From a virus, in IMG/VR virus record IMGVR_UViG_3300033232_000045, positions 1-64,000 of that record: DNA of 64,000 bases; one strand, given 5' to 3'. Position numbers and translations under genes: made by a program. This document shows, in pieces, positions 2,701 to 58,119 of the stretch. The notes under the pieces are model-generated. The model was not told the origin of the DNA. It saw only the letters and a program-made list of their open reading frames with translations, and did no database searches. Position 1 is the stretch's first letter, and every line of letters starts with the position of its first letter.

Positions 2701-4356
2701 TCATGCCGCGCCCCTCAGCAGCCCGAGGCCCGCGAAGTCGAAGTCTCTGCCGGCAGGCAGGATGTTCTCCCCGAAACCCTCGGTATTTTTAACGATGTTG
2801 AAACGGGCGACGGCGTGGTTCTTCGTGTGTTGGTTCCACTCGTCGTGGAAATCGACCACCAGGCAGACATTCGGGCCACCCTTCTTTGCCCGTAGTCCGC
2901 GACCGATGCGCTGCCGCATGGCGACCTCCGCCTTGCCGCCGCCCGCCAGGATCACCATGCCCACCGCCGGCACGTCGACGCCCACGTCGAGAATGGTTGA
3001 GCCGATCAGCGTGTCGATCTTGCCGTCCTTCAGCCACCCGAGATAGCGACGGCGCTCCTCCTGCGAGTGCTCGCCAAAGATGAACGCCGCCCTGACGCCG
3101 CGCTCCTTCAGCATCGTCTCAAGCAGCTTGCCGTGCGCCTTGTGCTGAACCAGTACCATAACGGGCATGCCCAGCTTGGCTGCGCGCTCCGCCTCGTACA
3201 CGACCGCACGGTTACGCCGCTCGTTCTCGCTGACGCCCGCCTTGTAGGCGACCTTCCAGGCGCTCGTACGGTACAGTTTGGCGGGACGGTCAAATTGCGT
3301 AACGAACTTGAAGTAGGGTTTTGCCAGGATGCCCCGGTCGATCAGCAGTTTCTCGCTGACTTTGATTGCGATCGGGCCAGAGCACGCCATCAAACGCATG
3401 TTCGACTCTTCGCTGTCCTTCATGAAGGGCGTGGCGGTGAGCGCGAGACGGTAGTAGGCGTTCCTGCAGTTGCGCATAATCTCGAAGTAGGAGTTGCCGG
3501 ACGCCTCATGCGCCTCTTCGAGGATGACGAGCTCGAACATTTCGAGCACCTTGATGGTCTCCTCGCGTCGGCGCTGCTGCGTCTCGACCCTAGGCTTCAC
3601 AAGTTCGACGATTTCCCTATTGGTCTTGCGCTTGAACGCAGGCAGCTTGCCTGTGCCGCCCATCTTGCGGGCGAGCGTTAGCGCCTTGTTGAATTTCGCC
3701 TCTTCCTCGCGCTCCTTAACCAGGAATGCCTCGACCTCGCTCTCGATCGTGGCCTCACGCAGGCGGGCGACCAAAGTCTGCACCATGCCGACATTGATGC
3801 CTCTGCGCGGGCTCCATTCTGAGTCACCCAGTACACCGACCGCCTTACCCAGGCCCTCGAAGCTGTCCTTCATCTGGTACATCAGGATGCCGCGCGTGGT
3901 CAGGAAGAGAGTGGGGCGACCGATGCGCACGGCGCACATTTTGGCGATGCGGGATTTGCCGCCACCGGTGGCGACCTGAGCGATGATCTGACCATATCTG
4001 ACCAGACGCCGCATGACTTCAGGCTGATAGTCGTAGCGCGGATCATCGCCGAACTCGTCGACGACCGGATTCTCGGGGCCGAGCGGGGCCGGCAGCGGCT
4101 TCCTGGCGCGCAGAACCTTGTAGCCCTTCTTAACCAAGTGCGCATGCACACGATCGGCGAAGCCTGCGGGGAAGGTGCCCCTGTTGAAGTCCAAAAATGA
4201 ACTGCGCCCGTCCCAGCGTCCACTTTGAAACGTGCTGGTGTGCTCCGCGCCGTCGACCTGATAGGAGAGGAGTGCCGAGACGAGGAGCTTCACCTCGCGG
4301 TCTGCATCGACCAGCTTGGCGATAACGGCATTGTTGGCGATCGTAACTGTGCTCAT
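2701..4356 (-). CDS. superfamily-2 DEAD/DEAH-box DNA/RNA helicase
   Basis: Walker A ATGGGKS, DEAH-like LEEAHE, motif VI QRIGRGLR. Confidence 0.85.
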   Translation of the reverse strand: MSTVTIANNAVIAKLVDADREVKLLVSALLSYQVDGAEHTSTFQSGRWDGRSSFLDFNRGTFPAGFADRVHAHLVKKGYKVLRARKPLPAPLGPENPVVDEFGDDPRYDYQPEVMRRLVRYGQIIAQVATGGGKSRIAKMCAVRIGRPTLFLTTRGILMYQMKDSFEGLGKAVGVLGDSEWSPRRGINVGMVQTLVARLREATIESEVEAFLVKEREEEAKFNKALTLARKMGGTGKLPAFKRKTNREIVELVKPRVETQQRRREETIKVLEMFELVILEEAHEASGNSYFEIMRNCRNAYYRLALTATPFMKDSEESNMRLMACSGPIAIKVSEKLLIDRGILAKPYFKFVTQFDRPAKLYRTSAWKVAYKAGVSENERRNRAVVYEAERAAKLGMPVMVLVQHKAHGKLLETMLKERGVRAAFIFGEHSQEERRRYLGWLKDGKIDTLIGSTILDVGVDVPAVGMVILAGGGKAEVAMRQRIGRGLRAKKGGPNVCLVVDFHDEWNQHTKNHAVARFNIVKNTEGFGENILPAGRDFDFAGLGLLRGAA

Positions 4357-5114
4357 GCGCTTGCCTCTCCTGCGAAATGCCTCCTTAGCCTCTTCCTGAG
4401 CGTGTCTGAGCTGACGCCATATTCGGCCGCAACACGAGTAAGCCCAGTCAGCCTGTTTGGGTTTGCAAAGTTTTTTGCCGCCCTCTCAACGTCTTCCACC
4501 GAGAGGGCATCACCATGCTTTTTTGTCGTCAGAATATTTTCTGACGACATTCCTAGCGCAATTCGCGTTCTGATCGTACCCGCTGGGACCCCAAGCCTTC
4601 TTGACCACTGAGCCACAGTCATTCTCTCGCCATCAAATTCGATGAAAACGCTATTCCTCTTATTGTTTTGCTGCGTCACCGCATCTGCCCACCTGCAATT
4701 TTCGGGAGAGTAGTCGCCGTCAACGTCAATACGGTCGAGACTTTTGCCGTCCTGCGCTTCACCCATGTCGCTCAGGAACGCCTCAAAGGAGCTAGCCCAC
4801 CTGTCGCATACCTTGATGCCACGCCCTCCATAGTTTCTGTAACTGGACAAACTTTCGTTTTTGCATCGCGCCCGCATAGACAGCCAGACCGCATAGGTCA
4901 GCGTCTGACTCATGCCGTGGGTTCTGTGCGTGTCTCCATTCCGCTCCCGGTGCAGGCACCCGCAAGACCGGGTATTTCCACTTTTAATGTTCCTAGTGGT
5001 TGCGCGAATCTCTTGTCCGCAATCGCACCTGCACAACCACAAACTTTTGCCAAGATACTCGACCGCAACAAGACGGCCGAATCGCTCGTTCGATAATTTT
5101 GACCTTGGGCTCAT
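4353..5114 (-). CDS. homing-endonuclease-like protein (Zn-ribbon, degenerate HNH-like motif, C-terminal HTHs); paralog of 60752-61345
   Basis: FGRL..C.CDCG..SCGC; YGGRGIKVCDRW; DRIDVDGDYSPENCRWA..Q.N; start moved to ATG 5114 (MSPRSKL); ATGA overlap with helicase start. Confidence 0.55.
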   Translation of the reverse strand: MSPRSKLSNERFGRLVAVEYLGKSLWLCRCDCGQEIRATTRNIKSGNTRSCGCLHRERNGDTHRTHGMSQTLTYAVWLSMRARCKNESLSSYRNYGGRGIKVCDRWASSFEAFLSDMGEAQDGKSLDRIDVDGDYSPENCRWADAVTQQNNKRNSVFIEFDGERMTVAQWSRRLGVPAGTIRTRIALGMSSENILTTKKHGDALSVEDVERAAKNFANPNRLTGLTRVAAEYGVSSDTLRKRLRRHFAGEASA

Positions 5115-5142
5115 TGACGTTTGCCTTATAGCAGGATAAAGT
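5114..5142 (+). promoter_or_regulatory. sigma70-like promoter TTGACG-N17-TAAAGT for the ParB/ABC/GNAT operon
   Basis: Hexamers at 5114-5119 and 5137-5142; same -10 and downstream context as the late promoter at 10056. Confidence 0.5.
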
Positions 5143-5155
5143 AAGCTGTGACTTA
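5138..5155 (+). promoter_or_regulatory. TAAGTCA-N4-TGAYTTA motif copy (degenerate left half)
   Basis: AAAGTAAGCTGTGACTTA, 25 nt upstream of gene 5180. Confidence 0.45.
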
Positions 5156-5179
5156 TATTATAGTAGATTAAACCAAACA

Positions 5180-5842
5180 ATGAAGAAGTTTGAAACAATT
5201 TATTTAAGCCCGCTCGCGCTAAGTGCGAACAAGTTCAATCCGAACGTGATGTCCGCAGAGAATGAGAACCGTCTGCGCGAGAGCATTCGCCGAAATGGAT
5301 TTTTCAAGCCCGCGCTTGTGCGGGAGCTGCCCAATGGAACGCTCGAAATCATAGGTGGAGAGCATAGGGTATCTGCAGCCATTGACCTTGGAATCACGGA
5401 GGTTCCGGTTGTCAATCTTGGCAGCATTAGCGACGAAAAGGCAAAAGAGCTTTGCGTCCTAGACAACGGTCGGTACGGTGACGACGATGCCCTGCGACTC
5501 GCGGAACTGCTGAGCGAGATGGGCTCCGTCGATGAAATTGCCTCCTTCATGCCTTACTCCGATGCTGATTTCGCTGCGATCTTCGCTTCGACCAGTATAG
5601 AGCTCGACAACCTCGACATCCCCGATAACGAGGAACTGCCTCCCATGCTGCCGACCGAGAAGCCGATCCAGACCCATCAGGTCATGCGCTTTAAAGTCCC
5701 GGTCGGCGATGTCGAGCACATCACCAGCGTCATCGAGCGCGTGATGCGGACACAAAAGTTCACCGATGAAGATTCCCTCTCCAACGCAGGCAATGCGCTG
5801 GTCCACGTATTCAAAAAAGGAGCAACCGAAGATGGCGTATAA
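5180..5842 (+). CDS. ParB/Srx N-terminal-domain (ParB-like nuclease domain) protein
   Basis: NPN..., EIIGGEHRVSAAIDLG, VLDNGRY motifs typical of the ParB N-terminal domain. Confidence 0.75.
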   Translation: MKKFETIYLSPLALSANKFNPNVMSAENENRLRESIRRNGFFKPALVRELPNGTLEIIGGEHRVSAAIDLGITEVPVVNLGSISDEKAKELCVLDNGRYGDDDALRLAELLSEMGSVDEIASFMPYSDADFAAIFASTSIELDNLDIPDNEELPPMLPTEKPIQTHQVMRFKVPVGDVEHITSVIERVMRTQKFTDEDSLSNAGNALVHVFKKGATEDGV

Positions 5843-5966
5843 GTGCGAAGAGTGCGAGTTCTGCGTGTTTCACGGCGTCGAGCCTGGCATTTGCGAGGAG
5901 TGCGAGAACGGCAGCGAGTACGAACCGGACTACGACGATGAAGACAGCATGAAGGCGGCAGCATGA
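5832..5966 (+). CDS. small zinc-ribbon-like protein, 44 aa
   Basis: ORF 5766-5966 trimmed to ATG 5832 with AAGGAG upstream; CEECEFC...CEECENG; acidic tail. Confidence 0.5.
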   Translation: MAYKCEECEFCVFHGVEPGICEECENGSEYEPDYDDEDSMKAAA

Positions 5967-6169
5967 GCAGCTTCATCGTCGCAGCACGCCACAAGGACGG
6001 CACCAAAAACCTCTATCAGGTGTCCGAAGCTGAGAACCACACCGAGGCATACGAACACGTTCGCGCATCCACAAGGGCGCGCGCAGTCCTCGTCTGCATC
6101 GAGGGCGGCAAGCCCCTCAAGGAAGCCCCCATCCCCGAAGATCAAGATAAGCAGGAGCAAACCGCGTGA
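5963..6169 (+). CDS. hypothetical protein, 68 aa
   Basis: Track ORF; ATGA-type overlap with both neighbours. Confidence 0.5.
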   Translation: MSSFIVAARHKDGTKNLYQVSEAENHTEAYEHVRASTRARAVLVCIEGGKPLKEAPIPEDQDKQEQTA

Positions 6170-6819
6170 GCGCCATGAACATTAAAATCTGGAACATCGA
6201 TGAGCTGATTCCGTACGAGCTCAACGCCAAGATTCACACCCCCGAGCAGGTCGCCCGTATCGCCAAGTCCATCAATGATTTCGGCTGGAACCAGCCGATC
6301 GTGGTGGATAAGTCAGGGGTGATTATCGCCGGTCACGGTCGGCGTCTCGCCGCAATCAAGTTGGGTATGGCAAAGGTGCCGGTCTGGGTGCGCGATGACC
6401 TCGACGATGATCAGGCGCGGGCGCTGCGCCTTGCTGACAACCGCGTTGCCGAGGGCGATATCGACACTGAAATATTTCGTCGCGAGCTGGAGACGCTGGA
6501 ATACGACCTGTCGGGAATCTTCGACGAGAAGGAGCTGGACTTTGGCACCCTCGACCTGGGCGAAATGGACACGGGCTCATTCATTGAGGATGTGGACGAG
6601 CAGGTCAGGCAGCAAAAGGCGGCAACCGAATCCCATATCCAGGAGACAGCGGTGCGCCAGGTTTCGCTGGCAAAAGCGATGGGCTTCAAGTCGATTTCCG
6701 GCGCCGACGAGATTCACGTCGCACAGTTCATGGCGGAAATCATGAACGACTTCGACCCCGACCCTGCGATCGCCTTTGTGAAGTTCGTCCAAGCATATAA
6801 CAATGGAGATGCAAAGTGA
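6166..6819 (+). CDS. ParB/Srx N-terminal-domain protein (second paralog)
   Basis: IIAGHGRRLAAIKLG and LRLADN motifs; no methylase or HTH domain follows. Confidence 0.75.
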   Translation: MSAMNIKIWNIDELIPYELNAKIHTPEQVARIAKSINDFGWNQPIVVDKSGVIIAGHGRRLAAIKLGMAKVPVWVRDDLDDDQARALRLADNRVAEGDIDTEIFRRELETLEYDLSGIFDEKELDFGTLDLGEMDTGSFIEDVDEQVRQQKAATESHIQETAVRQVSLAKAMGFKSISGADEIHVAQFMAEIMNDFDPDPAIAFVKFVQAYNNGDAK

Positions 6820-7589
6820 GCGATAAGTATCTGATTAACAAGAAGTTTACGACCCGTGTTGCGCGCTCGCCGCGCGTGCTTGAAATTGCTGAAGCCTTCG
6901 GTATCGGGCTCGAAGATAAGGAGTTTGTAATCTTTGACAACCTAGAGCTGGAAGTGCGTCAGGGCGACATCGTCTACATTACCGGCCAGTCCGGCTCGGG
7001 CAAGTCGCTACTGCTGAAGGAACTGGAGACCCAGATGCGCGAGCGCGGCAAGAACGTGGTCAACCTGGACCACATCCAGCTCGACGACTCGAAGCCTCTG
7101 ATTGACCAGATCGGGCACGACACTGGCGATGCCCTAAAGTACCTGTCGATTGCCGGCCTGAACGACGCCTTCCTGTTCGTGCGCCGACCCAATGAGCTGT
7201 CTGACGGGCAGCGTTATCGCTTTCGCCTGGCAAAGGCAATTGAGTCCGGCGCTGATGTTTGGGTGGTCGACGAGTTTATGGCGATTCTGGACCGCGTAGC
7301 GGCCCGCGTCATTGCCTTCTCGATCCAGAAGACCGCTCGCAATGCAGGCGCAACCGTGATCGTGGCAACCACGCACACCGACATGGTGCAAGACTTGCAT
7401 CCCGACCTCTACATCGAGAAGCATTACCGCGAAAAACTCAAGGTTGAAAGCTACGAAGACGCCGCGAAGCATGCCGGCGCCGACCACGTATCGGAAGAGG
7501 ACATTGAGGAGGCGGAGGTGGCGATGCATGCCGCAGGCGTCGCATTCACCCGAGCCGACCTCTACCGTTACCTGCTGGAGACCCTGTGA
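6816..7589 (+). CDS. ABC-type ATPase, soluble, no transmembrane partner
   Basis: Walker A GQSGSGKS, signature-like LSDGQRYR, Walker B VWVVDEF, H-loop ATTHT; GTGA overlap with upstream gene. Confidence 0.8.
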   Translation: MSDKYLINKKFTTRVARSPRVLEIAEAFGIGLEDKEFVIFDNLELEVRQGDIVYITGQSGSGKSLLLKELETQMRERGKNVVNLDHIQLDDSKPLIDQIGHDTGDALKYLSIAGLNDAFLFVRRPNELSDGQRYRFRLAKAIESGADVWVVDEFMAILDRVAARVIAFSIQKTARNAGATVIVATTHTDMVQDLHPDLYIEKHYREKLKVESYEDAAKHAGADHVSEEDIEEAEVAMHAAGVAFTRADLYRYLLETL

Positions 7590-7717
7590 TGGAGGCGCTG
7601 AGAGATTTTCTGAACATGGTCGTCCCGCTGCTTGCGATCGCCGCCGCCATCTTCCTGATGTGGCGCTCATTGAGCAACAAGGACGATGACGACTTCCCCG
7701 GGGGCACGCCCGCATGA
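7589..7717 (+). CDS. small single-TM peptide, 42 aa
   Basis: Own translation MEALRDFLNMVVPLLAIAAAIFLMWRSLSNKDDDDFPGGTPA; start overlaps upstream stop, stop overlaps next ATG. Confidence 0.4.
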   Translation: MEALRDFLNMVVPLLAIAAAIFLMWRSLSNKDDDDFPGGTPA

Positions 7718-7902
7718 CGCCCGAACAGTTCTGCTGCTGGTTGCAGGGGCTCTGCGAGCTCAATGTGCCCCGGGAACGGCCCACAGAGCGCCAGCGGGCG
7801 TCCATTAGGGAACATTTGCAGTTGACCTTCAAAAAGGTCACGGCGCCCATCTACGGCCCTAAAACTGCTGCCCCTGCGCAACACATTGACGTGGTGTGCT
7901 GA
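7714..7902 (+). CDS. hypothetical protein, 62 aa
   Basis: Track ORF, translationally coupled on both sides. Confidence 0.45.
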   Translation: MTPEQFCCWLQGLCELNVPRERPTERQRASIREHLQLTFKKVTAPIYGPKTAAPAQHIDVVC

Positions 7903-7904
7903 CC

Positions 7905-8819
7905 ATGAGCGAAATCATTCTGCTGGACAACCCTGACGCCCTTGTGAAGCGTCTGAAGCACGATAAGCCGCGACTCTCGCTGCTCGATCGCATCTACGTC
8001 GAAAAAGGCACACTCGATGACTGGAAAAAGCTGCATGAGCTTCACTACAAGGCTGAGAACCTGGGCATTGGCCCTCGCTATTGGCGCTGCGTACTCGATG
8101 GGGAAACTATTGGCGTTCTGGTCTTTACCGTGCCCAAGCCACTCGACTCGGGTCGTAACAAGGTGTTCCCGCGACTGAAGCCCAATCAGGGCGGGCGCGA
8201 CAATCGCCTGGTCAACCGCGCTCGCATGAACTGGCTCAACGCGAACATGATCCTATGCAGCCGCAACGTGCTCGACACCATGTACCGGGGCGCGGGCATC
8301 GCCTATCGCTTCCGAAACCTGACGTTCCGCATGTGCGGGCTGCGCTACATCGAGGCGCGCTCGTCCATGAGCCGGTTCAACCCGTTCTACCAGAAGGCCG
8401 GCATGAAGTTGATCGCCCCCAAGCCGTCGAACTGCCACCTGCAAGGGCTGGAGTTCTTTGGCCGTCACTTCCGCTCGCTACCCTCCGACAGCGTGGCAGT
8501 GATGAACGAACTGCAGGGAATGCCCGAGGCAATCCGCGAGAACGTAATTCGCGAAATGCGGGGCTTCTACTACCGCCACAGCTCGATGGAGAAGTCAGGT
8601 GACAAGCGCTTACTTGGCACGTCCAGAGTCGATTCTCTGCCCGTTACGACCCTATTACGTCAGGTATTGCAGCTCGTCTTCGGATCGACCATCTACGGAA
8701 TCTACGAAAACCCCGATCACGGGCGCCAGCTTCCGAGCCGACTGCCCCTTACCGCGTTCGACTGGCAGGCCACCAACGAGCCGCTGCGTCTTGACCTATT
8801 GCCAAAGGAGTACCAGTGA
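7905..8819 (+). CDS. GNAT-like acyltransferase-fold protein (putative)
   Basis: Acetyl-CoA-loop-like motif VLDTMYRGAGIAYRF followed by NPFYQKAGM; N-terminal LHELHY...GETIGVLVFTVP; a GTG at 7896 is an alternative start. Confidence 0.5.
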   Translation: MSEIILLDNPDALVKRLKHDKPRLSLLDRIYVEKGTLDDWKKLHELHYKAENLGIGPRYWRCVLDGETIGVLVFTVPKPLDSGRNKVFPRLKPNQGGRDNRLVNRARMNWLNANMILCSRNVLDTMYRGAGIAYRFRNLTFRMCGLRYIEARSSMSRFNPFYQKAGMKLIAPKPSNCHLQGLEFFGRHFRSLPSDSVAVMNELQGMPEAIRENVIREMRGFYYRHSSMEKSGDKRLLGTSRVDSLPVTTLLRQVLQLVFGSTIYGIYENPDHGRQLPSRLPLTAFDWQATNEPLRLDLLPKEYQ

Positions 8820-9139
8820 ATCTAACTGTGAAGCAAATTTCCATTCTGCGGGCGGTCGTCAACCGCAACGACGACGGGTCCCTTGTGGACCTGGATCAGC
8901 TCCTCGACCGCATCGACTATGAGACGACCAAGGCCAGCATCCAGTTTTCGATCCGCAGCATGGTGAAGGCGGGCGTGATCATGAAGGTCGCGGAGAGACG
9001 GCGGGGTCGGCAGCATGTCTGCTACGAACCAACCGGCCTCGGCGCCCGCATCCTGGGTCGAGACAAGCCCATGCAGGGAGTGGTTGAGGATGAGGGCTGG
9101 AACGAAATCCTCTCCGCAACGGGACACCTCGCCCTATAA
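8816..9139 (+). CDS. winged-helix (MarR-like) DNA-binding protein, 107 aa
   Basis: ISILRAV...SIQFSIRSMVKAGVIMKV...Y.PT helix-turn-helix plus wing pattern; last gene of the operon. Confidence 0.5.
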   Translation: MNLTVKQISILRAVVNRNDDGSLVDLDQLLDRIDYETTKASIQFSIRSMVKAGVIMKVAERRRGRQHVCYEPTGLGARILGRDKPMQGVVEDEGWNEILSATGHLAL

Positions 9140-9643
9140 GGCAGAAAAGAATTCGCTGTCTATACCGTGATGCTCAATATGCGCAGCCTTGAATGCATCG
9201 AATGCCTCTTCCGCGTCGTCGTAGAGCCCGATGAAGTGGCGCCTGCCCCTCACGTTGATGGTGGCGCAGTAGCGGTCGCCTCGCGGGTAGACGCCCCTGA
9301 AGCCGGTCTTGCTCGTCGTGCCGCGATTGTTGATGTTCGCAACACAGGGAACATCGCGAAGGTTCTCGATTCGGTTGTTGGTCTTGTTCCGGTCGATATG
9401 GTCGATCTGTCGCTTCGGCAATTCACCATCGTTGTGCAACGCCCACACAATGCGGTGGCAGCGATATTGCGTCCCATCGATGCCGACCATGAGATAGCCC
9501 TTCGGGTTTGTCGACCCCGCGATGCCTCCAGCTTTGACGTTGCCGCGATTGATTCGCCAGATCAGGTTCCCCGTCTTGGGGTCGTAGTCGAGCAGTTCGC
9601 GAATGCGCTCCAGGGTTGGATGCGTCTTGTATTGGGCGTGCAT
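9134..9643 (-). CDS. HNH endonuclease with AP2-type DNA-binding domain (free-standing homing endonuclease)
   Basis: CHRIVWALH...IDHIDRNKTNNRIENLR HNH motif; GFRGVYPRGDRYCATINVRGRRHFIGLYDDAEEA AP2-like domain. Confidence 0.8.
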   Translation of the reverse strand: MHAQYKTHPTLERIRELLDYDPKTGNLIWRINRGNVKAGGIAGSTNPKGYLMVGIDGTQYRCHRIVWALHNDGELPKRQIDHIDRNKTNNRIENLRDVPCVANINNRGTTSKTGFRGVYPRGDRYCATINVRGRRHFIGLYDDAEEAFDAFKAAHIEHHGIDSEFFSAL

Positions 9644-9692: not shown

Positions 9693-9741
9693 TAGGGTTT
9701 ACTGGCGATAGAGCTAGGGGATTTCTGGACGTTCTTATAAG
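9693..9741 (+). repeat. 49-bp direct repeat copy 1 (core GGTTTACTGGYGATAGAGCTAGGG)
   Basis: TAGGGTTTACTGGCGATAGAGCTAGGGGATTTCTGGACGTTCTTATAAG. Confidence 0.85.
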
Positions 9742-9749
9742 CGCCCCTA

Positions 9750-9798
9750 TAAGGTTTACTGGTGATAGAGCTAGGGGATTTTCGGGCATTCTTGTAAG
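9750..9798 (+). repeat. 49-bp direct repeat copy 2
   Basis: TAAGGTTTACTGGTGATAGAGCTAGGGGATTTTCGGGCATTCTTGTAAG; about 42/49 identical to copy 1. Confidence 0.85.
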
Positions 9799-9860
9799 AT
9801 AGAAGTATAAGTAAGTAGTTAATTAAAGAGTCTATATATATATGAGAAGCACCAAAAATA

Positions 9861-9884
9861 CCCTAGTTCTATCACTAGTAAAAC
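9861..9884 (-). repeat. inverted copy of the 24-bp repeat core
   Basis: Reverse complement GTTTTACTAGTGATAGAACTAGGG matches the core at 21/24; separated from the direct copies by an AT-rich tract (tatatatatatg). Confidence 0.75.
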
Positions 9885-10040: not shown

Positions 10041-10058
10041 TAAGTAAGCGGTGACTTG
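10041..10058 (+). promoter_or_regulatory. TAAGTCA-N4-TGAYTTA motif copy overlapping the late promoter -35
   Basis: TAAGTAAGCGGTGACTTG. Confidence 0.5.
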
Positions 10059-10161: not shown

Positions 10162-10836
10162 ATGAGTGAACCGAAGAAGACATTTCCGAACCCGCGCAAG
10201 AGCTACCCCAAGACCATCCGATCGAGCAAGCGCATGACGCCGGCGCAATGGGCCGAGGCGGAAGCACTGTGGGAATCGGGTCAGGTCACGCTGGTTGACC
10301 TCGCCAAGAAGTTCGACAAGGCGGAAGAGACGTTCTCGCGCTACTTCAAGAAAAAAGGCATGAAGAAGGGCGCCAAGAAGGAAGAGCACGCCGAAAAGGT
10401 CAAGGAGAGGGTCGCTGACGCGATCGCTGACGACGCGACGGTGCTTGCCTCCCGCATTCGCGAGACGAAGGAGGAGCACTACCAGATGGCCCGCGCCATC
10501 GGCAAGCTCACCTGGCGTGAAGTGCTGAAGGCACAGACTGCCGGCTCGGTCGCCGGCTCGACGGCAGAGTTCAGGTCGCTCAGGGAGGCGATGACCGTTC
10601 TCAAGCTGGCGCGCGAAGAGCGCTGGGCGGTTCTGGGCCTCGACAACCCCGATACCGAGAACGACGCCAACTTGCCCGACCTCGTGATTCAGGAGCTCAC
10701 CGCTGGTCAGATTGAGGCGATGCAGGCAGATCAGGAGCAAGACCTTGCGTTGCAGTCGCTCAACCTCGAAGAGGACCCCATGTTGAATGAGGACGACGAC
10801 GGCGACGAAGACGACGTGGTGATGGAGGGGGAATGA
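10162..10836 (+). CDS. terS: terminase small subunit
   Basis: Position immediately upstream of and overlapping terL; N-terminal HTH-like VTLVDLAKKFDKAEETFSRYFKKKG; acidic C-terminus. Confidence 0.7.
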   Translation: MSEPKKTFPNPRKSYPKTIRSSKRMTPAQWAEAEALWESGQVTLVDLAKKFDKAEETFSRYFKKKGMKKGAKKEEHAEKVKERVADAIADDATVLASRIRETKEEHYQMARAIGKLTWREVLKAQTAGSVAGSTAEFRSLREAMTVLKLAREERWAVLGLDNPDTENDANLPDLVIQELTAGQIEAMQADQEQDLALQSLNLEEDPMLNEDDDGDEDDVVMEGE

Positions 10837-12110
10837 CCGCAATCAAACAGTCGACCCGTGACCTGTACCAAGCAAAGCACCGCATTCAGCTCCATCCGGG
10901 ACAGATGCGGGTGTTCAAGTCAAAGGCGCGCTTCAAGGTTGTCGTCTCTGGTCGCCGATGGGGCAAGACCACGTTGTCGAAGACCGTCATCATCAAGATG
11001 GCCCAGATCAAGAATCGTCGTATATGGTACGTCGCCCCGAGCTATCGGATGGCAAAGGGCATCATGTGGACCGACCTGATCGAGGCGATTCCGCGCAAGT
11101 GGATTCGCAAGATCAACGAAACCACGATGACGATTCGCCTGGTCAACGGGACGGTGATCGAGCTCAAAGGCGCCGACAAGCCCGACAGCTTGCGGGGCGT
11201 CGGTCTGCACTACATCGTGCTCGACGAGATGCAAGACATGGGCGAAGAGCTTTGGACGAAGGTGCTGCGCCCTACGCTCGCTTCTACGGGTGGTCACGCG
11301 CTGTTTCTGGGTACGCCCAAAGCGTACAACTACCTGCACAGCTTGTACCGGCTCGGGAAAGACCCTGAGAACATCAAGTCTGGCATGTGGGAATCCTGGC
11401 AGTACCCGACCATCACCAGCCCGTTCATCCCGAAGTCGGAGATTGAGGCTGCGCGCCGCGATATGGACGAGAAATCGTTCCGTCAGGAGTTCGAGGCATC
11501 ATTCGAGACGATGAGCGGGCGGGTCTACCATCCATTCGATCGCGCAATCCATGTCAACAAGTGCGAGTTCAATCCGAAGCTGCCTATTTGGATTGGGCAG
11601 GACTTCAACATCGACCCGATGTCTTCGATCGTCATGCAGCCGCAGCAAAACGGAGAGGTCTGGGTGGTCGACGAGGTTATTCTGCCTGGCTCAAACACGG
11701 AAGAGACCTGCGCTGAGCTTGAGCGGCGCTACTGGCGTCACATCGAGCAAATCACGATCTACCCCGACCCTGCCGGCGGTCAGCGTCAGCACGCTCGCGG
11801 CGAAACCGACCTCGACATTTTTCGCGAGAAGGGCTTCAAGCGTCTGAAGTATCGCAAAAAGCACCCCGCCGTCGCTGACCGGGTGAACTCGGTCAACCGT
11901 ATGCTGAAAGCGGCCGATGGGACTGTGCGCCTGCGCGTCAACGAGAAGTGCAAGCACACGATTAAGGCGCTGGAGCAAACGATCTACGAGCCTGGAAGTC
12001 GTGACGTGGACAAGCGGGCGGGCGTCGAGCATGCAGCAGACGGCCTGGGCTACTGCATCGAGCTGGAGTTCCCGATGCGCAAAATCAACATCATGGGCAT
12101 TTCACTATAG
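10833..12110 (+). CDS. terL: terminase large subunit
   Basis: Walker A SGRRWGKT, Walker B HYIVLDEMQD, C-terminal nuclease region (DPAGG...). Confidence 0.9.
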   Translation: MTAIKQSTRDLYQAKHRIQLHPGQMRVFKSKARFKVVVSGRRWGKTTLSKTVIIKMAQIKNRRIWYVAPSYRMAKGIMWTDLIEAIPRKWIRKINETTMTIRLVNGTVIELKGADKPDSLRGVGLHYIVLDEMQDMGEELWTKVLRPTLASTGGHALFLGTPKAYNYLHSLYRLGKDPENIKSGMWESWQYPTITSPFIPKSEIEAARRDMDEKSFRQEFEASFETMSGRVYHPFDRAIHVNKCEFNPKLPIWIGQDFNIDPMSSIVMQPQQNGEVWVVDEVILPGSNTEETCAELERRYWRHIEQITIYPDPAGGQRQHARGETDLDIFREKGFKRLKYRKKHPAVADRVNSVNRMLKAADGTVRLRVNEKCKHTIKALEQTIYEPGSRDVDKRAGVEHAADGLGYCIELEFPMRKINIMGISL

Positions 12111-12167: not shown

Positions 12168-13736
12168 ATGGACAACGAACAGCAGAAACAGCTAAAGGCA
12201 TTGGTCGAGCGCCGTCATCCCGAGTATGACGCGCTGATCGGGCATTGGAACTTCCTGCAGGCGACCTACGAGGGTGGCCGTGCCTGGTTCAGCGAGCACA
12301 TTTTCAAGTACCTAAAAGAAGGCGACGGCGAGTTCGGCGACCGTATCACGCGCGCCTACCGCTTCAACCACACCCGCGAGGTAGTGGACCTCCTGAACAA
12401 GTACATTTTCAAAATGGACATCGTGAGCAGCGAAGACGCGCCCGAGTCCATCAGACGGTTCTGGGCGAACTCGACCAAAAACGGCATGCCGATTGATCAG
12501 TTCCGTCGCGAGCTTTCGCGCAAGTCTTCGATTGGCGGGCGTATCTGGGTAGTGGTCGACTCGACCAATGCTGGCGACGTGGTCACGAAGGCGGACGAAA
12601 AGCGCGTGGGTGCTCGCGCGTTCGCCTACGCCGTGATGCCGCAGCACGTCCTGGACTTCAGCTACGACGAGCATGGCGACCTCAACTGGATTTTGATTCA
12701 CGAGGTTGGGCGCGACGACGACGACCCCATCACATCGAGCGGCAAGACGGTCAATCGTTACCGCCTGTGGACGCGCACCGAATGGAAGCTCTTCAAGGAG
12801 GAGAAGCAGGGCCGCAAGACGGTTATCGTCGAGGACGGCGGCGACAGTCACGACCTAGGCGAAGTGCCGGTGGTACGCGTCGATAACCTGATTTCTGATG
12901 AGCCGTGGTCCTCTCCTGCGCTGATCGCCGATATTGCCTACCTGGATCGGGCGGTCGCGAACTACCTGTCGAACCTTGATGCCATCATTCAGGATCAAAC
13001 ATTCAGTCAACTTGCCATGCCGGCGCAGAACGTCATGCCAGGCGAGAGCGCCTACACCGCGCTGGTCGAGGCGGGTACGAAGCGCATTTTCATCTATGAC
13101 GGCGAGGGCAATGGCAAGCCATTCTACTTGTCGCCCGACCCAGCCCAGGCGCGTCTGATTCTCGAAGTGGTCAACAAAATCATTTCGGAGATTTACCACT
13201 CGGTCGGCATGGCCGGCGAGCGCACCAAGGAGGACAACTCAATGGGGATCGACAATAGCTCGGGCGTAGCGAAAGCCTATGACTTCGAGCGGGTCAACTC
13301 CCTACTGGTGTCAAAGGCTGACGCTCTGGAGCTCGCAGAGAACCGCATTTGTCGTCTGGTTGCGCTGTGGGCGGGCGACAAGGTTGAAGAGGGCGACTCA
13401 TGGGTGACGTACCCCGAAACCTTCGACGTGCGCGGGCTATATGACGAGTTCGACATCGCCACCAGGCTCTCATTGGTCGAGGCGCCCGACTCGATGCGCC
13501 GTGAGCAGATGAAGACGATTATCGAGAAATTGTTCCCGCGTCTGAGGGACGAGCTCAAAGACAAGATGCTTGGCGAGCTGGACAAGTGGCCCCCTGAGCA
13601 TGATCCGATGACGCTTGGGGCTCCGCCAGCCGGCAGCAAGCTACCAACCCCAAAAGGCGACAACAAGCAAGGGCAGAACAACAAGCGCGAGCCTGTTGAT
13701 GCTCGCACCAGTAGTTTCGAGTCTCAGAATGACTGA
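12168..13736 (+). CDS. portal protein
   Basis: 522 aa ORF directly after terL, AGGAAG RBS; size and position typical of a portal. Confidence 0.75.
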   Translation: MDNEQQKQLKALVERRHPEYDALIGHWNFLQATYEGGRAWFSEHIFKYLKEGDGEFGDRITRAYRFNHTREVVDLLNKYIFKMDIVSSEDAPESIRRFWANSTKNGMPIDQFRRELSRKSSIGGRIWVVVDSTNAGDVVTKADEKRVGARAFAYAVMPQHVLDFSYDEHGDLNWILIHEVGRDDDDPITSSGKTVNRYRLWTRTEWKLFKEEKQGRKTVIVEDGGDSHDLGEVPVVRVDNLISDEPWSSPALIADIAYLDRAVANYLSNLDAIIQDQTFSQLAMPAQNVMPGESAYTALVEAGTKRIFIYDGEGNGKPFYLSPDPAQARLILEVVNKIISEIYHSVGMAGERTKEDNSMGIDNSSGVAKAYDFERVNSLLVSKADALELAENRICRLVALWAGDKVEEGDSWVTYPETFDVRGLYDEFDIATRLSLVEAPDSMRREQMKTIIEKLFPRLRDELKDKMLGELDKWPPEHDPMTLGAPPAGSKLPTPKGDNKQGQNNKREPVDARTSSFESQND

Positions 13737-56181: not shown

Positions 56182-58119
56182 ATGAACGAACGTGTCTACA
56201 TCCTGCGCGAAGCTGTCACACGCCTGACCAAGCTGCTTGCTGGCAAGAAGGTCGAGGTGACACAGCGTGGCACTCGCGCTTACGTTGAGTACACGCTGGC
56301 GGGCCAGCCCAAGCGCGTGAATTTGCCGTACATCCCCGACAACGCCAGCGAGGATTTGATCAACGCGATTCAGGGCTTTCTTGACCACGAGGTCGGGCAC
56401 ATCCTATTCAGCGACTTTGAGCTGCTGGCGAAGGGCATCGAGGAGGGCGTCGGGAACCTGCACAACGTCCTTGAGGACACGTTTATCGAGCGGCAGATGA
56501 TGAAGAAGTTTCGCGGCTCAGGCATGAACCTGACTTCCACCAGCGGCTTCTACCTGAACCACTTCGCCAAGCCGGAACTTGCGAAGGCGACTGCGGAGGG
56601 CGATGTCAAGAGAATGATCGGCATTCTCATGGTTCCGGCGATCCGCGCATGGTCGGGACAGGAGATTCACGCCGAGTTCATGCGTGACAAGCTGGGGATT
56701 CTGGAGCCGGTAGTCAAGCGTCTCGGATCGCTGATAGGTGACATTGCAAAATGCAACAGCACTGCCGACACCCTTGCGCTGGCGCACAAGATCAACAGGG
56801 CGCTCGAAGAGTCACCTGCCCCCGAATCACCCAGCAAGGAAGGCAAGGAAAAGCCCGAAAAGCCCGAGAAAAAGGATGAGATCGAGGAGCCCGATGAGAA
56901 GCCGGACGACGAGCAGAGCGAAGACAAAGGTGACGGGGAGAGCTCAGACGGCTCCGGCGCAAAAAATGAAGACGAAGACGAAGGTGAAGATAAGGATGAG
57001 GGCGAGGGCGACGAGGGCGACGAGGGCGAAGAGCCGCCTGGCGAGAGAGGGGCGGGCGCCGACGATAGTCCCGAGAACGCCTCCGAAGAGGAATCGGAGG
57101 AGTCCGGCGTCAGCCTGACAGGCATCGAAGGGATGCTCAGTGACGATTTCGACAGTGCTGTGGCGGAAGTCCTGTCTAAAGTTTCGGTGAAGGCAGCGGA
57201 GTCGTCTGACTACCTCGTTTACACGAAGGATTTCGATAAGATCGAGCCGCTGCCGACGAGGGGGTTCTCGGATTTTCTCCTGTCGCGTCTGGAGGACAAG
57301 ACGCTACACATGGCGGGGCCGCTGCAGAAAGACCTTGAGCGTGCCATCGCGGCGCGCTCAATGAAAGTATGGCAGGGTGGGCTGCGCAGGGGCAGAATCA
57401 ACGGGGCTAGCCTTGCCCGTCTTGCGACGGGCGACGATCGTATCTTCAGGCGACGCCAGGAGCACAGGGGCAAGGATGCGGCGGTCGAGCTGGTGGTGGA
57501 TTGCTCGGGCTCAATGGACGGGGTGCCGATCGAGCTTGCGACCCAGGCTGCGTACGCGCTGTCTACCGTGCTGGATCGCATGGGGATCGCCAACGAGGTG
57601 ATCGGGTTCACCACGCTTTCCATCTATGGACGCGGAGCAGCAGGGCCGAGCGACGAAGAGGTGCAGGAAGACCCGCTGAGCGCAACCGGCAAGCAGTATT
57701 CGCGGTTTGAGCCGATCTATATGCCGGTGATTAAGGGCTTCGACGAGCGCATGAATTCCACCGTCAAGCAGCGCTTTGCTGTCCTACCGGCGGCGGGGTG
57801 CTTCCGTAATAACATTGATGGCGAGTCGATTGAAATTGCCGCGATGCGTTTGATGCAGCGCCGAGAGAAGGGCAAGATAATGATCGTGCTGTCTGACGGG
57901 GAACCCGCAGCGTGTGGGGAGTCCGCCGAGCAGTACAGTCACCTCCTGCGAACGACGAAGAAAATCGAGGCAGCAGGCATCAACCTGATCGGGCTTGGCA
58001 TCGACAGCGCGGCGGTCACGCGGTTCTACAGTAAGAGCATCGTGATCCGCAAGATAGAGGAGCTGCCAGGTGAGGTGATGCGCCAGTTGAAAGGCATGCT
58101 GCTGGGCAGTATGCAATAA
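56182..58119 (+). CDS. cobT: CobT-like von Willebrand factor A protein with long acidic tract
   Basis: vWA MIDAS VVDCSGSM; about 100 aa Asp/Glu-rich insert; pairing with the downstream CobS-like AAA+ gene. Confidence 0.8.
   Translation: MNERVYILREAVTRLTKLLAGKKVEVTQRGTRAYVEYTLAGQPKRVNLPYIPDNASEDLINAIQGFLDHEVGHILFSDFELLAKGIEEGVGNLHNVLEDTFIERQMMKKFRGSGMNLTSTSGFYLNHFAKPELAKATAEGDVKRMIGILMVPAIRAWSGQEIHAEFMRDKLGILEPVVKRLGSLIGDIAKCNSTADTLALAHKINRALEESPAPESPSKEGKEKPEKPEKKDEIEEPDEKPDDEQSEDKGDGESSDGSGAKNEDEDEGEDKDEGEGDEGDEGEEPPGERGAGADDSPENASEEESEESGVSLTGIEGMLSDDFDSAVAEVLSKVSVKAAESSDYLVYTKDFDKIEPLPTRGFSDFLLSRLEDKTLHMAGPLQKDLERAIAARSMKVWQGGLRRGRINGASLARLATGDDRIFRRRQEHRGKDAAVELVVDCSGSMDGVPIELATQAAYALSTVLDRMGIANEVIGFTTLSIYGRGAAGPSDEEVQEDPLSATGKQYSRFEPIYMPVIKGFDERMNSTVKQRFAVLPAAGCFRNNIDGESIEIAAMRLMQRREKGKIMIVLSDGEPAACGESAEQYSHLLRTTKKIEAAGINLIGLGIDSAAVTRFYSKSIVIRKIEELPGEVMRQLKGMLLGSMQ

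What the first reader, a model, noticed from the sequence alone, without database searches (positions are those of the whole stretch)
5114..9139. Unassigned operon of two ParB/Srx-domain proteins, a soluble ABC ATPase, a GNAT-like protein and a wHTH protein: candidate nucleic-acid modification or counter-defence system
Nine co-directional ORFs run from a sigma70-like promoter (5114-5142). Almost every junction overlaps (5963/5966, 6166/6169, 6816 GTGA, 7589, 7714, 8816).

Contents:
- two paralogous proteins consisting essentially of the ParB N-terminal (Srx-like NTP-binding/nuclease) domain, without the HTH/dimerisation part of chromosomal ParB and without a methyltransferase domain;
- a CxxC mini-protein;
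- an ABC-type ATPase with all motifs but no membrane partner;
- a 42-aa TM peptide;
- a 304-aa protein with a GNAT-type acetyl-CoA loop (YRGAGIAYRF ... FYQKAGM);
- a MarR-like wHTH protein.

I do not recognise this combination as a named system.

From established knowledge:
- ParB/Srx domains recur in phage DNA-modification and anti-restriction loci.
- The GNAT fold is the catalytic fold of phage Mu Mom, which modifies adenine in DNA.
- An ATPase plus GNAT pairing is used by TmcA for ATP-dependent cytidine acetylation.

Inference: this may be an ATP-dependent acyl-transfer modification of phage DNA or RNA, or another counter-defence function.
Basis: partly seen in the sequence, partly recalled or inferred. 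Interest (0 to 1): 0.75.

Follow-up and report, generated by a model that had tools for sequence, protein, structure and literature searches.

The report
Phage ParB, ABC-ATPase and acyltransferase cassette
This phage operon is a real member of a widespread but never tested virus gene cassette (ParB-like proteins, a soluble ABC ATPase and an acyl-CoA transferase) that most likely attaches an acyl group to DNA before it is packaged, an idea already predicted in the literature.

Summary
Nine co-directional, mostly overlapping ORFs (5180-9139) encode two ParB N-domain proteins, a CxxC mini-protein, a complete soluble ABC ATPase, a TM peptide, a 304-aa protein and a wHTH protein.

An AlphaFold model of the 304-aa protein (pLDDT 90) is a GNAT fold. 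The acyl-CoA loop is invariant. Structural neighbours include phage Mom, TmcA and NAT10.

The ATPase and the GNAT protein are the two halves of a protein that is fused elsewhere (COG2401, "ABC-type ATPase fused to acetyltransferase"). More than 1,100 IMG/VR contigs carry a fused form.

In short-form loci a ParB gene lies directly upstream in 60 of 73 cases. A large terminase of four different families follows within three genes in about 57 of 76 loci. Some versions are fused to DNA polymerase B. Others are followed by PanD plus a CoA-transferase, by a formyltransferase, or by an amidoligase.

The best reading is ParB-assisted, ATP-driven acylation of DNA bases before packaging. The window encodes no donor-synthesis genes, so acetyl-CoA is the likely donor.

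This is not new as an idea: Aravind's group predicted a GNAT-ABC DNA-base acylation system in 2013. I found no experimental test.

Verdict: a new member of a known, predicted but uncharacterised kind. Interest is moderate.

The parts
5114..5142 (+). sigma-70-like promoter candidate (TTGACG-17-TAAAGT) in the 65-nt gap between the divergent HNH gene and ParB1
   Evidence: The score is 9/12, which is not above chance on its own.
5139..5154 (+). degenerate copy (AAGTAAGCTGTGACTT) of the intergenic palindrome AAGTCAnnnnTGACTT. A near-identical copy lies before terS at 10042-10057.
   Evidence: An exact copy lies at the equivalent position upstream of ParB1 in relative L094.
5180..5842 (+). ParB1: ParB/Srx N-domain protein, 220 aa, acidic (pI 4.7), with an unassigned C-terminal half
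   Evidence: Pfam ParB_N 2.9e-11. phrog_723 5.6e-57. Orthologues in nickie, SSU5, L093 and L094. pI.
5832..5966 (+). CxxC...CxxC mini-protein (44 aa), a probable zinc ribbon
   Evidence: 65% identical homologue at the same position in L093, and a CxxC...CxxC ORF at the same position in L094. phrog_7446 E 8e-4.
5963..6169 (+). 68-aa ORF of unknown function
   Evidence: Only a positional counterpart (60 aa) exists in L093. No family hit.
6166..6819 (+). ParB2: ParB CTPase-fold N domain plus a helical C-terminal domain, 217 aa (or 214 from ATG 6175). It is the conserved partner of the ABC-GNAT enzyme.
   Evidence: phrog_930 3.6e-79. Matches the ParB part of ParB-methyltransferase models (phrog_498 1.4e-38; PADLOC MTase_II 1e-26). 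Closest window relative of the single ParB of Pasteurella phage Pmp13 (E 2e-23). AF2 pLDDT 85; Foldseek hits Noc/ParB/KorB.
6816..7589 (+). soluble ABC-type ATPase, 257 aa, with all catalytic motifs. It is homologous to the N-terminal half of ABC-GNAT fusion proteins.
   Evidence: Pfam ABC_tran. Matches positions 4-217 of the fusion profile at E 7.4e-98. PDB relatives are generic ABC nucleotide-binding domains.
7586..7717 (+). 43-aa single-TM peptide with an acidic DDDDFPGG tail
   Evidence: An unannotated counterpart with DDDFPPGG lies after the ABC gene in L093, and a similar 32-aa peptide occurs in L094.
7714..7902 (+). 62-aa ORF of unknown function
   Evidence: phrog_35763 5e-11. Absent from nickie, SSU5, L093 and L094 at this place.
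7905..8819 (+). GNAT-fold acyl-CoA transferase (core residues about 1-175) plus a conserved C-terminal domain, 304 aa, basic (pI 9.8). It is homologous to the C-terminal half of ABC-GNAT fusions.
   Evidence: phrog_886 2.8e-116. AF2 pLDDT 90. Foldseek hits GNATs, Mom, TmcA and NAT10. Invariant YRGAGIAYR acyl-CoA loop. Fusion profile 206-459 at E 2e-47.
8816..9139 (+). small winged-helix (MarR-like) DNA-binding protein, 107 aa
   Evidence: phrog_900 1.5e-22. Conserved directly after the GNAT gene in nickie, SSU5, Cyrano, L093 and L094. Weak MarR-family PDB hits.
2701..4356 (-). divergently transcribed DEAD/UvsW-type helicase. It is a conserved neighbour of the cassette in this phage lineage; its membership of the system is uncertain.
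   Evidence: phrog_16 7.8e-100. Same position in nickie, SSU5, Cyrano, L093 and L094.

Best explanation
The cassette is a split version of the viral ParB + ABC-ATPase-GNAT system. It most likely acylates an exocyclic amine of bases in the phage's own double-stranded DNA, after replication and before packaging.

Proposed mechanism:
- The GNAT protein binds an acyl-CoA. The window carries no donor-synthesis genes, so acetyl-CoA or another host acyl-CoA is the likely donor. The GNAT protein transfers the acyl group.
- The ABC ATPase, which is fused to the GNAT in other viruses, dimerises on ATP. This supplies the work needed to engage duplex DNA and expose the base, in the way the ATPase domain of TmcA/NAT10 serves its GNAT on RNA.
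- ParB2, helped by its paralogue ParB1, is an NTP-binding adaptor lacking a ParB HTH. It loads or activates the enzyme on dsDNA, as shown for ParB-dependent phage thymine dioxygenases.
- The small wHTH protein regulates or targets the system.
- The modified DNA would resist host restriction or other DNA-sensing defences.

Shown: the folds, the motifs, the fusions and the gene linkage. Inferred: the substrate (DNA), the chemistry, the timing and the protective role.
For: 1. The 304-aa protein has a GNAT fold with an invariant acyl-CoA loop. Among viral models its near neighbours include a Mom protein and Mom-like endonuclease fusions.

2. The window's ATPase and GNAT match the two halves of single-chain ABC-GNAT proteins (E 7e-98 and 2e-47). 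Fusions were verified by Pfam. The family is large: 611 representatives, 770 clusters, and 569 plus at least 595 IMG/VR contigs.

3. ParB linkage:
- A ParB gene lies directly upstream in 60 of 73 short-form loci and in Pmp13, LE4 and Sisko.
- ParB2's closest relatives are the ParB domains of DNA methyltransferase fusions.
- There is a published precedent for short ParBs without an HTH that activate a DNA-modifying enzyme on dsDNA (PMC13229309).

4. DNA context:
- PolB-ABC-GNAT fusions, P0225 and P0196.
- A position between DnaB/DHH and Pol III alpha.
- Placement just upstream of terminases of four Pfam families in about 57 of 76 loci.
- The same placement in the window, with terS at 10162 and terL at 10833.

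5. Acyl-group logic. Other versions carry, directly downstream of ABC-GNAT:
- PanD plus a CoA-transferase-III-like gene.
- A formyltransferase-like gene. The Gordonia and Burkholderia phage copies are 44% identical.
- Amidoligase_2 plus GGACT.

6. The GNAT protein is strongly basic across the family (median pI 9.6).

7. The same prediction was reached independently by Iyer et al. (quoted in PMC7824862).
Against: - No modified base has been reported for SSU5-, nickie- or RHEph10-like phages in the papers I could read. No experimental study of the family was found.
- Both ParBs are very acidic (pI 4.6) and lack a recognisable DNA-binding domain. Direct DNA loading by them is therefore not evident.
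- ParB is not adjacent in any of 80 long-form (mostly archaeal-virus-like) loci, so it is not a universal requirement.
- The region before terminase genes is a common site for accessory genes, so that position alone does not prove function.
- Structural similarity to Mom or TmcA is no better than to many small-molecule or protein GNATs (TM-scores 0.3-0.6 on the target).
Confidence: 0.5

Rival explanations
1. The enzyme acylates a protein rather than DNA. Candidates are a host nucleoid or transcription protein (as the phiKMV Rac GNAT acetylates RNA polymerase), or a phage packaging or capsid protein. The ABC ATPase and ParBs would act as regulators.
For: Most characterised GNATs hit act on proteins or small amines. 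Phage GNATs that modify host proteins are known (PMC7824862). The position next to terminase and portal genes would also suit a packaging-protein target.
Against: This reading does not explain the tight ParB linkage, the kinship of ParB2 with ParB-DNA-methyltransferase fusions, the PolB fusions, or the dedicated acyl-donor and tailoring genes. The strongly basic GNAT surface fits a polyanion.
Confidence: 0.15
2. The enzyme is a TmcA/NAT10-like ATP-dependent RNA acyltransferase. It would modify tRNA, rRNA or phage mRNA to favour phage translation or to evade tRNA-targeting defences.
For: It combines an ATPase with a GNAT, as in TmcA. TmcA (2zpa) and NAT10 (9j3c) appear among the Foldseek hits with long alignments. 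Relatives such as nickie carry tRNA genes nearby.
Against: The ATPase is an ABC type, not the helicase-type domain of TmcA. No TmcA/NAT10 family hit was found in Pfam or NCBIfam. ParB partners, PolB fusions and terminase proximity point to DNA. No tRNA gene lies in the window.
Confidence: 0.1
3. The cassette is an accessory of DNA packaging rather than a protective modification. ParB, ABC and GNAT would mark or prepare concatemeric DNA, or the pac/cos region, for the terminase. Alternatively they would regulate terminase activity.
For: A terminase large subunit of four unrelated families follows within three genes in about 57 of 76 short-form loci. In SSU5 the linear record ends between the wHTH gene and the terminase genes. 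In the window, three copies of a 27-nt repeat lie between the cassette and terS.
Against: In other viruses the ABC-GNAT gene sits far from the terminase: at the end of the tail module in archaeal proviruses and phiE255, or among replication genes. Donor-synthesis and tailoring genes fit a chemical hypermodification better.
Confidence: 0.1
4. The enzyme acts before replication, on free nucleotides or a small-molecule precursor. DNA polymerase would then incorporate the altered nucleotide.
For: Fusions to DNA polymerase B and placement beside Pol III alpha and a guanylate-kinase-like gene would also fit nucleotide-pool chemistry.
Against: N-acylated dNTPs would disturb base pairing during synthesis. 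ParB partners of this type have been tied to enzymes acting on polymer DNA. The window has no dNTP-pool remodelling genes next to the cassette.
Confidence: 0.07
5. The database annotations are right: the ParB proteins partition the phage-plasmid and the ATPase is part of an ABC transporter.
For: These are the names given in public records for SSU5, nickie and Cyrano.
Against: No ParA, no ParB HTH and no permease or binding protein are present. The cassette also occurs in nickie-type phages, for which one study saw no temperate behaviour. The 'ABC transporter ATP-binding subunit' (phrog_886) is in fact a GNAT-fold protein.
Confidence: 0.02

Closest known systems
COG2401 / MK0520-type 'ABC-type ATPase fused to a predicted acetyltransferase'. 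This is the GNAT-ABC system that Iyer, Zhang, Burroughs and Aravind (NAR 2013) predicted to acylate a DNA base, as quoted in PMC7824862.
   Same: The ATPase and GNAT domains are the same by profile match. The distribution is viral or proviral. ParB linkage is seen in many members. JGI names close homologues with the COG2401 label.
   Different: Here the two domains are separate genes with two small ORFs between them. Two ParB paralogues, a CxxC protein and a wHTH protein accompany them. The family has only a computational prediction, and I could not read the 2013 paper itself.
TmcA / NAT10 (ATP-dependent RNA cytidine N4-acetyltransferases)
   Same: An ATPase is coupled to a GNAT that acylates a nucleobase amine in a polymer. 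Both are Foldseek hits of the model (2zpa, 9j3c).
   Different: Their ATPase is helicase-like, not ABC type. They carry a dedicated tRNA-binding domain and have no ParB partner. No sequence-family hit was found.
Phage Mu Mom (GNAT-fold DNA adenine modification)
   Same: It is a phage-encoded GNAT-fold enzyme acting on DNA. Mom is among the best structural matches (8bv8; Mom of phage FSL SP-031). In the Mu-like phage phiE255 the ABC-GNAT gene sits after the tail-fibre genes, where accessory genes lie.
   Different: Mom has no ATPase and no ParB. There is no detectable sequence similarity, and Mom is under different regulation (Com).
ParB-dependent phage thymine dioxygenases (5mYOX + ParB; PMC13229309), and DpdB in the Dpd 7-deazaguanine system
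   Same: A short ParB with an NTP-binding N domain and a C-terminal domain but no HTH is encoded beside a DNA-modifying enzyme. It is needed for the enzyme's action on dsDNA. The ParB2 model has the same architecture.
   Different: The partner enzyme here is an acyltransferase plus an ABC ATPase, not a dioxygenase or transglycosylase. Dependence on ParB has not been tested here.
ParB-DNA methyltransferase fusion proteins of phages (phrog_498; PADLOC MTase_II model)
   Same: ParB2 aligns with their N-terminal ParB domain at E 1.4e-38 and 1e-26. They often occupy the same pre-terminase position.
   Different: No methyltransferase domain is present in the window proteins. The catalytic partner is supplied in trans and uses different chemistry.

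Membership tests
ABC-GNAT (COG2401) viral system | ABC ATPase domain homologous to that of the fusion proteins, with intact catalytic motifs | tested here: met
   The fusion profile (A2), positions 4-217, matches the window ATPase at E 7.4e-98. Walker A and B, signature, D-loop and H-loop are present.
ABC-GNAT (COG2401) viral system | GNAT domain homologous to that of the fusion proteins, with an acyl-CoA binding loop | tested here: met
   Fusion profile positions 206-459 match at E 2e-47. The fold is GNAT. The R-x-x-G-x-A loop is invariant in 41 homologues.
ABC-GNAT (COG2401) viral system | both domains in one polypeptide | tested here: not met
   The genes are separate (6816-7589 and 7905-8819) with two small ORFs between them. 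The split is shared by SSU5, nickie, L093 and L094.
ABC-GNAT (COG2401) viral system | adjacent ParB-like gene (typical of the short-form clade, not universal) | tested here: met
   ParB2 lies directly upstream and overlaps the ATPase gene. A ParB gene is directly upstream in 60 of 73 short-form loci and in none of 80 long-form loci.
ABC-GNAT (COG2401) viral system | acylation of a DNA base (the predicted activity) | not testable with these tools
   This needs nucleoside mass spectrometry or an enzymatic assay.
TmcA/NAT10 RNA acetyltransferases | helicase-type (RecD-like) ATPase domain and DUF1726/tRNA-binding domains | tested here: not met
   Only ABC_tran and generic P-loop hits were found for the ATPase. 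No TmcA-type family matched any ORF.
TmcA/NAT10 RNA acetyltransferases | GNAT catalytic domain | tested here: met
   Foldseek hits 2zpa and 9j3c at E 4e-4 to 1e-3. The similarity is at fold level only.
Mom family | sequence membership in the Mom family | tested here: not met
   No Mom family hit in Pfam, PHROGs or NCBIfam. The similarity is structural only.
Chromosomal/plasmid ParB (partition) | ParB N-terminal CTPase-fold domain | tested here: met
   Pfam ParB_N matches both proteins. Foldseek hits Noc, ParB and KorB.
Chromosomal/plasmid ParB (partition) | central HTH DNA-binding domain, ParA partner and parS sites | tested here: not met
   Structural alignments stop after about 100-137 columns, with no HTH match. 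No ParA-like gene lies in the neighbourhood. I did not search for parS.
ABC transporter | membrane permease and/or substrate-binding partner | tested here: not met
   The only membrane-type ORF nearby is a 43-aa peptide. Homologues are fused to GNAT, PolB or TFIIB-like domains, never to permease domains, in the sample checked.
MarR-type wHTH regulators (for ORF 8816-9139) | winged helix with a MarR-like recognition helix and wing | tested here: inconclusive
   The best PDB profile hits are all MarR family but weak (E 0.012-0.7). Pfam HTH_27 gives E 0.043.
Known anti-phage defence systems (PADLOC) | match of the set of proteins to a defined defence system | tested here: not met
   Only domain-level hits were found: ParB to the ParB part of an MTase model, and the ATPase to generic ABC ATPases mad3/mad8. 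The GNAT, wHTH and small ORFs had no hits.

The most novel reading that the evidence does not exclude
The cassette writes a DNA modification that has never been described chemically in any virus: an N-acyl base. This would be acetyl in this phage, and beta-alanyl, formyl-aminoacyl or peptide-like in relatives that carry PanD plus a CoA-transferase, a formyltransferase or an amidoligase. The writer would be the first ATP-dependent, ParB-assisted DNA acyltransferase. It would be installed just before packaging in more than a thousand bacterial and archaeal viruses.
Probability: 0.4. Interest if true: 0.85.

Novelty: new member of a known kind. Interest (0 to 1): 0.55.

Why it matters
If the prediction is right, this family is a large and untested class of DNA-modifying enzymes in viruses of both bacteria and archaea. 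It would add acylation to the known chemistry of phage DNA.

The family includes the SSU5-type phage-plasmids of clinical Enterobacteriaceae. A cassette-dependent DNA modification could affect their escape from restriction and other defences, their sequencing, and their use as tools.

A natural writer of N-acyl bases in DNA would also bear on the debated reports of N4-acetyl-deoxycytosine in eukaryotic DNA (PMC8722123). I know of no writer reported for it.

The split, four-component version in this window (ParB1, ParB2, ATPase, GNAT) suits reconstitution, because each part can be omitted or mutated separately.

Tried and rejected
- A megablast of 5100-9200 against 50,697 phage records found nothing. 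The phage is not a close relative of any deposited genome.
- Pfam, NCBIfam and a PDB sequence search gave no assignment for the 304-aa protein. Only the structure and PHROGs did.
- Literature searches for 'COG2401' and 'ABC-type ATPase fused to' found nothing.
- The two key Aravind-group papers (PMC3763556, PMC7544218) are not held. The prior prediction is therefore known to me only through its citation in PMC7824862.
- Papers on Cyrano/LF82, Nickievirus and P. syringae phages say nothing about these genes or about DNA resistant to restriction.
- The 80 best long-form IMG/VR loci belong largely to one clade. There the gene sits at the end of a tail module and near contig ends, so they gave little independent context.
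- The ASCH-domain link to N4-acylcytosine (YqfB, PMC6972931) is weak. Only 3 of 145 neighbours are ASCH, and at least one is on the opposite strand.
- The N-terminal extension of P0159 looks like ParB plus a CxxC ribbon fused to ABC-GNAT. Support is only BLAST E 3e-5 to a ParB2-type protein, with no Pfam ParB hit.
- The N-terminal extension of P0195 has a P-loop and a PD-(D/E)xK-like motif by eye only.
- PADLOC gave no defence-system assignment.
- The window holds no PanD, CoA-transferase, formyltransferase, amidoligase or GGACT homologue.
- The partition and transporter annotations are rejected (see the rival explanations).

Full report
**1. The observation**

The window carries nine + strand ORFs between 5180 and 9139:
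- ParB1, 5180-5842
- a CxxC mini-protein, 5832-5966 (a longer reading starts at 5766)
- a 68-aa ORF, 5963-6169
- ParB2, 6166-6819 (the database copy starts at ATG 6175)
- an ABC ATPase, 6816-7589
- a 43-aa TM peptide, 7586-7717
- a 62-aa ORF, 7714-7902
- a 304-aa protein, 7905-8819
- a 107-aa protein, 8816-9139

The promoter-like site 5114-5142 is real (9 of 12 matches). Such sites are no commoner here than in shuffled sequence (3 found, 2.7 expected).

The surroundings are as follows:
- a divergent DEAD/UvsW-type helicase, 2701-4356, on the - strand
- two HNH-type endonuclease genes on the - strand, 4353-5114 and 9134-9643
- a terS-like DNA-binding protein, 10162-10836
- TerL, 10833-12110
- portal, 12168-13736

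The window is from a phage. The identical GNAT protein lies on a 98,679-bp JGI contig. No deposited phage is close at the DNA level.

**2. What the proteins are**

Both ParB proteins have the ParB N-terminal domain (Pfam). They are distant paralogues, 32% identical over 79 aa.

A model of ParB2 (pLDDT 85) matches the CTP-binding N domain of Noc, ParB, KorB and PadC, and sulfiredoxin more weakly. The matches span only about 100-137 columns. The helical C-terminal part has no ParB HTH match. The proteins are more than a bare N domain, however.

The ATPase has every ABC motif and resembles generic ABC nucleotide-binding domains. There is no permease.

The 304-aa protein has no Pfam, NCBIfam or PDB sequence match. 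It belongs to phrog_886, which is misnamed 'ABC transporter ATP-binding subunit'.
- Its AlphaFold model, built from 41 homologues, has pLDDT 90 and pTM 0.78.
- Residues about 1-175 are a GNAT fold. Foldseek probability is 1.0 to dozens of GNATs, including phage Mu Mom (8bv8), TmcA (2zpa) and NAT10 (9j3c).
- Among viral models, the neighbours include a Mom protein, Mom-like endonuclease fusions and Leptospira phage LE4 gp15.
- The acyl-CoA loop YRGAGIAYR is invariant.
- The protein is strongly basic (pI 9.8; family median 9.6). Both ParBs are very acidic (pI 4.6-4.7).

The last ORF is a small protein conserved in all relatives. Its best structural-database relatives are MarR-family winged helices, but the hits are weak.

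**3. The ATPase and the GNAT are one enzyme**

Public records name homologues of the 304-aa protein 'ABC-type ATPase fused to a predicted acetyltransferase' (COG2401, MK0520).

A profile search of 1.84 billion representatives found 611 relatives. Many are 450-500 aa with the GNAT part in the C-terminal half. Pfam confirms an N-terminal ABC domain in them.

A profile of 37 such fusions matches the window ATPase over positions 4-217 (E 7e-98) and the window GNAT protein over positions 206-459 (E 2e-47). The window therefore has a split form, with the same domain order as the fusions.

Further fusions add the following domains:
- a family B DNA polymerase (P0225, 1260 aa, found on two IMG/VR contigs; P0196)
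- a TFIIB-like domain
- an intein

P0159 may add a ParB-like region plus a CxxC ribbon (weak).

**4. Conservation of the neighbourhood**

The whole arrangement recurs in several phage groups: helicase on the opposite strand, then ParB1, ParB2, ATPase, GNAT and wHTH, then terS and terL. It is found in:
- Pseudomonas phage nickie
- Salmonella phage SSU5 and other SSU5-type phage-plasmids of Escherichia and Klebsiella
- Rhizobium RHEph10-type phages
- Stenotrophomonas and Xanthomonas phages
- two metagenomic relatives

These are shown.

The CxxC protein and the TM peptide are conserved in the two closest relatives, L093 and L094. The 62-aa ORF is not. The two HNH genes are absent from both relatives, so they are insertions.

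These phages form one broad lineage, so I looked for independent lineages. A shorter fused ABC-GNAT (366-410 aa) occurs in four further phages:
- Pasteurella phage Pmp13 has ParB, then the fusion, then terS and terL.
- Leptospira phage LE4 has ParB, then the fusion, then terL.
- Gordonia phage Sisko has ParB gp1, the fusion gp2, a formyltransferase-like gp3 and the terminase gp4.
- The Mu-like Burkholderia phage phiE255 has the fusion gp29 and a formyltransferase-like gp30 after the tail-fibre genes.

At least 595 IMG/VR contigs carry this short form. In the 76 loci I analysed:
- A ParB-like ORF is the immediate upstream neighbour in 60 of the 73 loci that have one.
- A large terminase of four different Pfam families follows within three genes in about 57 loci.

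The single ParB of these phages is of the ParB2 type. ParB2 also aligns best with the ParB domain of ParB-DNA-methyltransferase fusions (phrog_498; PADLOC MTase_II).

The long fused form (about 480 aa; 569 IMG/VR contigs) is mostly in archaeal proviruses and some Firmicutes prophages. It has no adjacent ParB in any of 80 loci. ParB is therefore a frequent but not universal partner.

**5. Clues to the chemistry**

Three different enzyme sets sit directly downstream of ABC-GNAT in different viruses.
- Aspartate decarboxylase (PanD) plus a short CoA-transferase-III-like protein occur in four loci, followed by terS and terL where the locus extends far enough. Jace-type Gordonia phages also carry the CoA-transferase-like gene.
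- A Formyl_trans_N protein occurs in Sisko and in phiE255. The two copies are 44% identical although their hosts belong to different phyla.
- Amidoligase_2 plus a gamma-glutamyl-cyclotransferase-like protein occur in a Desulfofarcimen prophage and a related element.

My inference is that these sets make or tailor the transferred group. For example, aspartate would give beta-alanine, then beta-alanyl-CoA, which the GNAT would transfer. Formylation or ligation would then act on the free amine. This pattern fits a hypermodification pathway better than a regulatory protein acetylation.

None of these genes is in the window. The window's version probably uses a host acyl-CoA, and acetyl-CoA is the simplest candidate.

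**6. Most likely mechanism**

The parts that are shown:
- a GNAT with an intact acyl-CoA site
- an ABC ATPase with intact motifs, physically fused to the GNAT elsewhere
- an NTP-binding-fold ParB without an HTH as a linked partner
- fusions to a DNA polymerase
- placement among replication genes or just before terminase genes

The parts that are inferred:
- The ATP-driven dimerisation of the ABC domains lets the basic GNAT engage duplex DNA and reach an exocyclic amine.
- ParB2, with ParB1, loads or activates the enzyme on dsDNA.
- This happens on replicated phage DNA before packaging.
- The product protects against host nucleases.

ParB-dependent phage thymine dioxygenases are a direct experimental precedent for the ParB role. 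Their ParBs likewise have an N domain and a C-terminal domain but no DNA-binding domain, and are needed only on dsDNA (PMC13229309).

I put 0.5 on this explanation. The rivals and their weights are:
- protein acylation, 0.15
- TmcA-like RNA acylation, 0.10
- a packaging accessory role, 0.10
- nucleotide-pool chemistry, 0.07
- the annotated partition or transporter roles, 0.02

**7. Relation to what is known**

The idea is not new. [quoted passage not shown] It cites Iyer et al., NAR 2013 (PMC7824862). The same 2013 work is cited for the idea that ParB homologues direct modification enzymes. I could not read the 2013 paper.

I found no experimental characterisation in 8 million papers and preprints.

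The cassette is a member of this predicted family by homology. It differs in being split and in carrying two ParBs, a CxxC protein and a wHTH protein. It works like TmcA/NAT10 and like Mom but is a member of neither family (see the membership table). It matches no known defence system.

**8. Verdict**

The cassette is a new member of a known, computationally predicted but untested kind.

What this analysis adds:
- structural confirmation of the GNAT fold
- numbers for the ParB and terminase linkage
- the ParB2-type assignment of the conserved partner
- the three accessory enzyme sets, which point to acyl-CoA-based hypermodification

Interest is moderate at 0.55. A specialist would not be surprised, but the system is widespread, unexplored and directly testable.

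Noticed in passing
window-wide, for example 12123, 14691, 15651, 18842, 23836, 24195, 30685, 35252, 36504, 38931, 42015, 43999, 47550, 55522, 58118, 59386; degenerate copies at 5139-5154 and 10042-10057: The 16-nt palindrome AAGTCAnnnnTGACTT occurs 29 times with up to 2 mismatches, against 1.5 expected. 23 of the 29 copies lie outside genes, mostly just after stop codons. Six are immediately preceded by a TAnnnT hexamer. The related contig L094 has four exact copies at equivalent places: before ParB1, before terS, after terL and one more. It may be a phage-specific promoter or operator element, or a 6-bp/4-nt RNA hairpin.
   Followed up: partly
window 9698-9724 (+), 9755-9781 (+), 9856-9882 (-): Three copies of the 27-nt element TTTACTGGYGATAGAGCTAGGGGATTT, two direct and one inverted, lie in the 520-nt gap between the cassette and terS. 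None is expected by chance. In SSU5 the linear record ends in the equivalent gap, so these may be terminase recognition (pac/cos) or regulator sites.
   Followed up: partly
window 4353-5114 (-) and 9134-9643 (-): Two HNH-type endonuclease genes (phrog_374/3377 and phrog_99) flank the cassette on the opposite strand. Both are absent from the two closest relatives, L093 and L094, so they look like recent homing-endonuclease insertions.
   Followed up: partly
L129:2311-7064, L131:106-4805, L167:1741-6972, L148: Uncultured phages carry the order ParB, ABC-GNAT, aspartate decarboxylase (PanD), short CoA-transferase-III-like protein, then terS and terL. This suggests a phage-made beta-alanyl-CoA donor.
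   Followed up: partly
L007:1814-2464 (Gordonia phage Sisko gp3) and L006:5936-6550 (Burkholderia phage phiE255 gp30): Sisko gp3 is annotated 'tRNA-methyltransferase' but matches Formyl_trans_N (E 4.5e-10). It is 44% identical to phiE255 gp30. In both phages the gene directly follows the ABC-GNAT gene.
   Followed up: partly
L053 and L058, 2595-6374 (protein P0225): A single 1260-aa ORF fuses a family B DNA polymerase (exonuclease and polymerase domains) to the ABC ATPase and GNAT. It is found on two IMG/VR contigs of 73 and 26 kb.
   Followed up: no
L093:8479-11083; L167:4531-6972; protein P0160: Inteins or homing elements interrupt neighbouring or homologous genes. The terL region of L093 carries a LAGLIDADG ORF, L167's TerL contains an intein, and one ABC-GNAT homologue (P0160) has an intein inside the ABC domain.
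   Followed up: no
window 56182-58119 (+): A 645-aa protein matches phrog_1576 (unknown function, E 6e-201), with weaker similarity to CobT/cobaltochelatase-like families. It was scanned only as context.
   Followed up: no
PHROGs and GenBank annotations of phrog_886 and phrog_293 members: The GNAT protein family is propagated in databases as 'ABC transporter ATP-binding subunit', and ParB2 homologues as 'DNA methyltransferase'. Both names are misleading for these proteins.
   Followed up: yes
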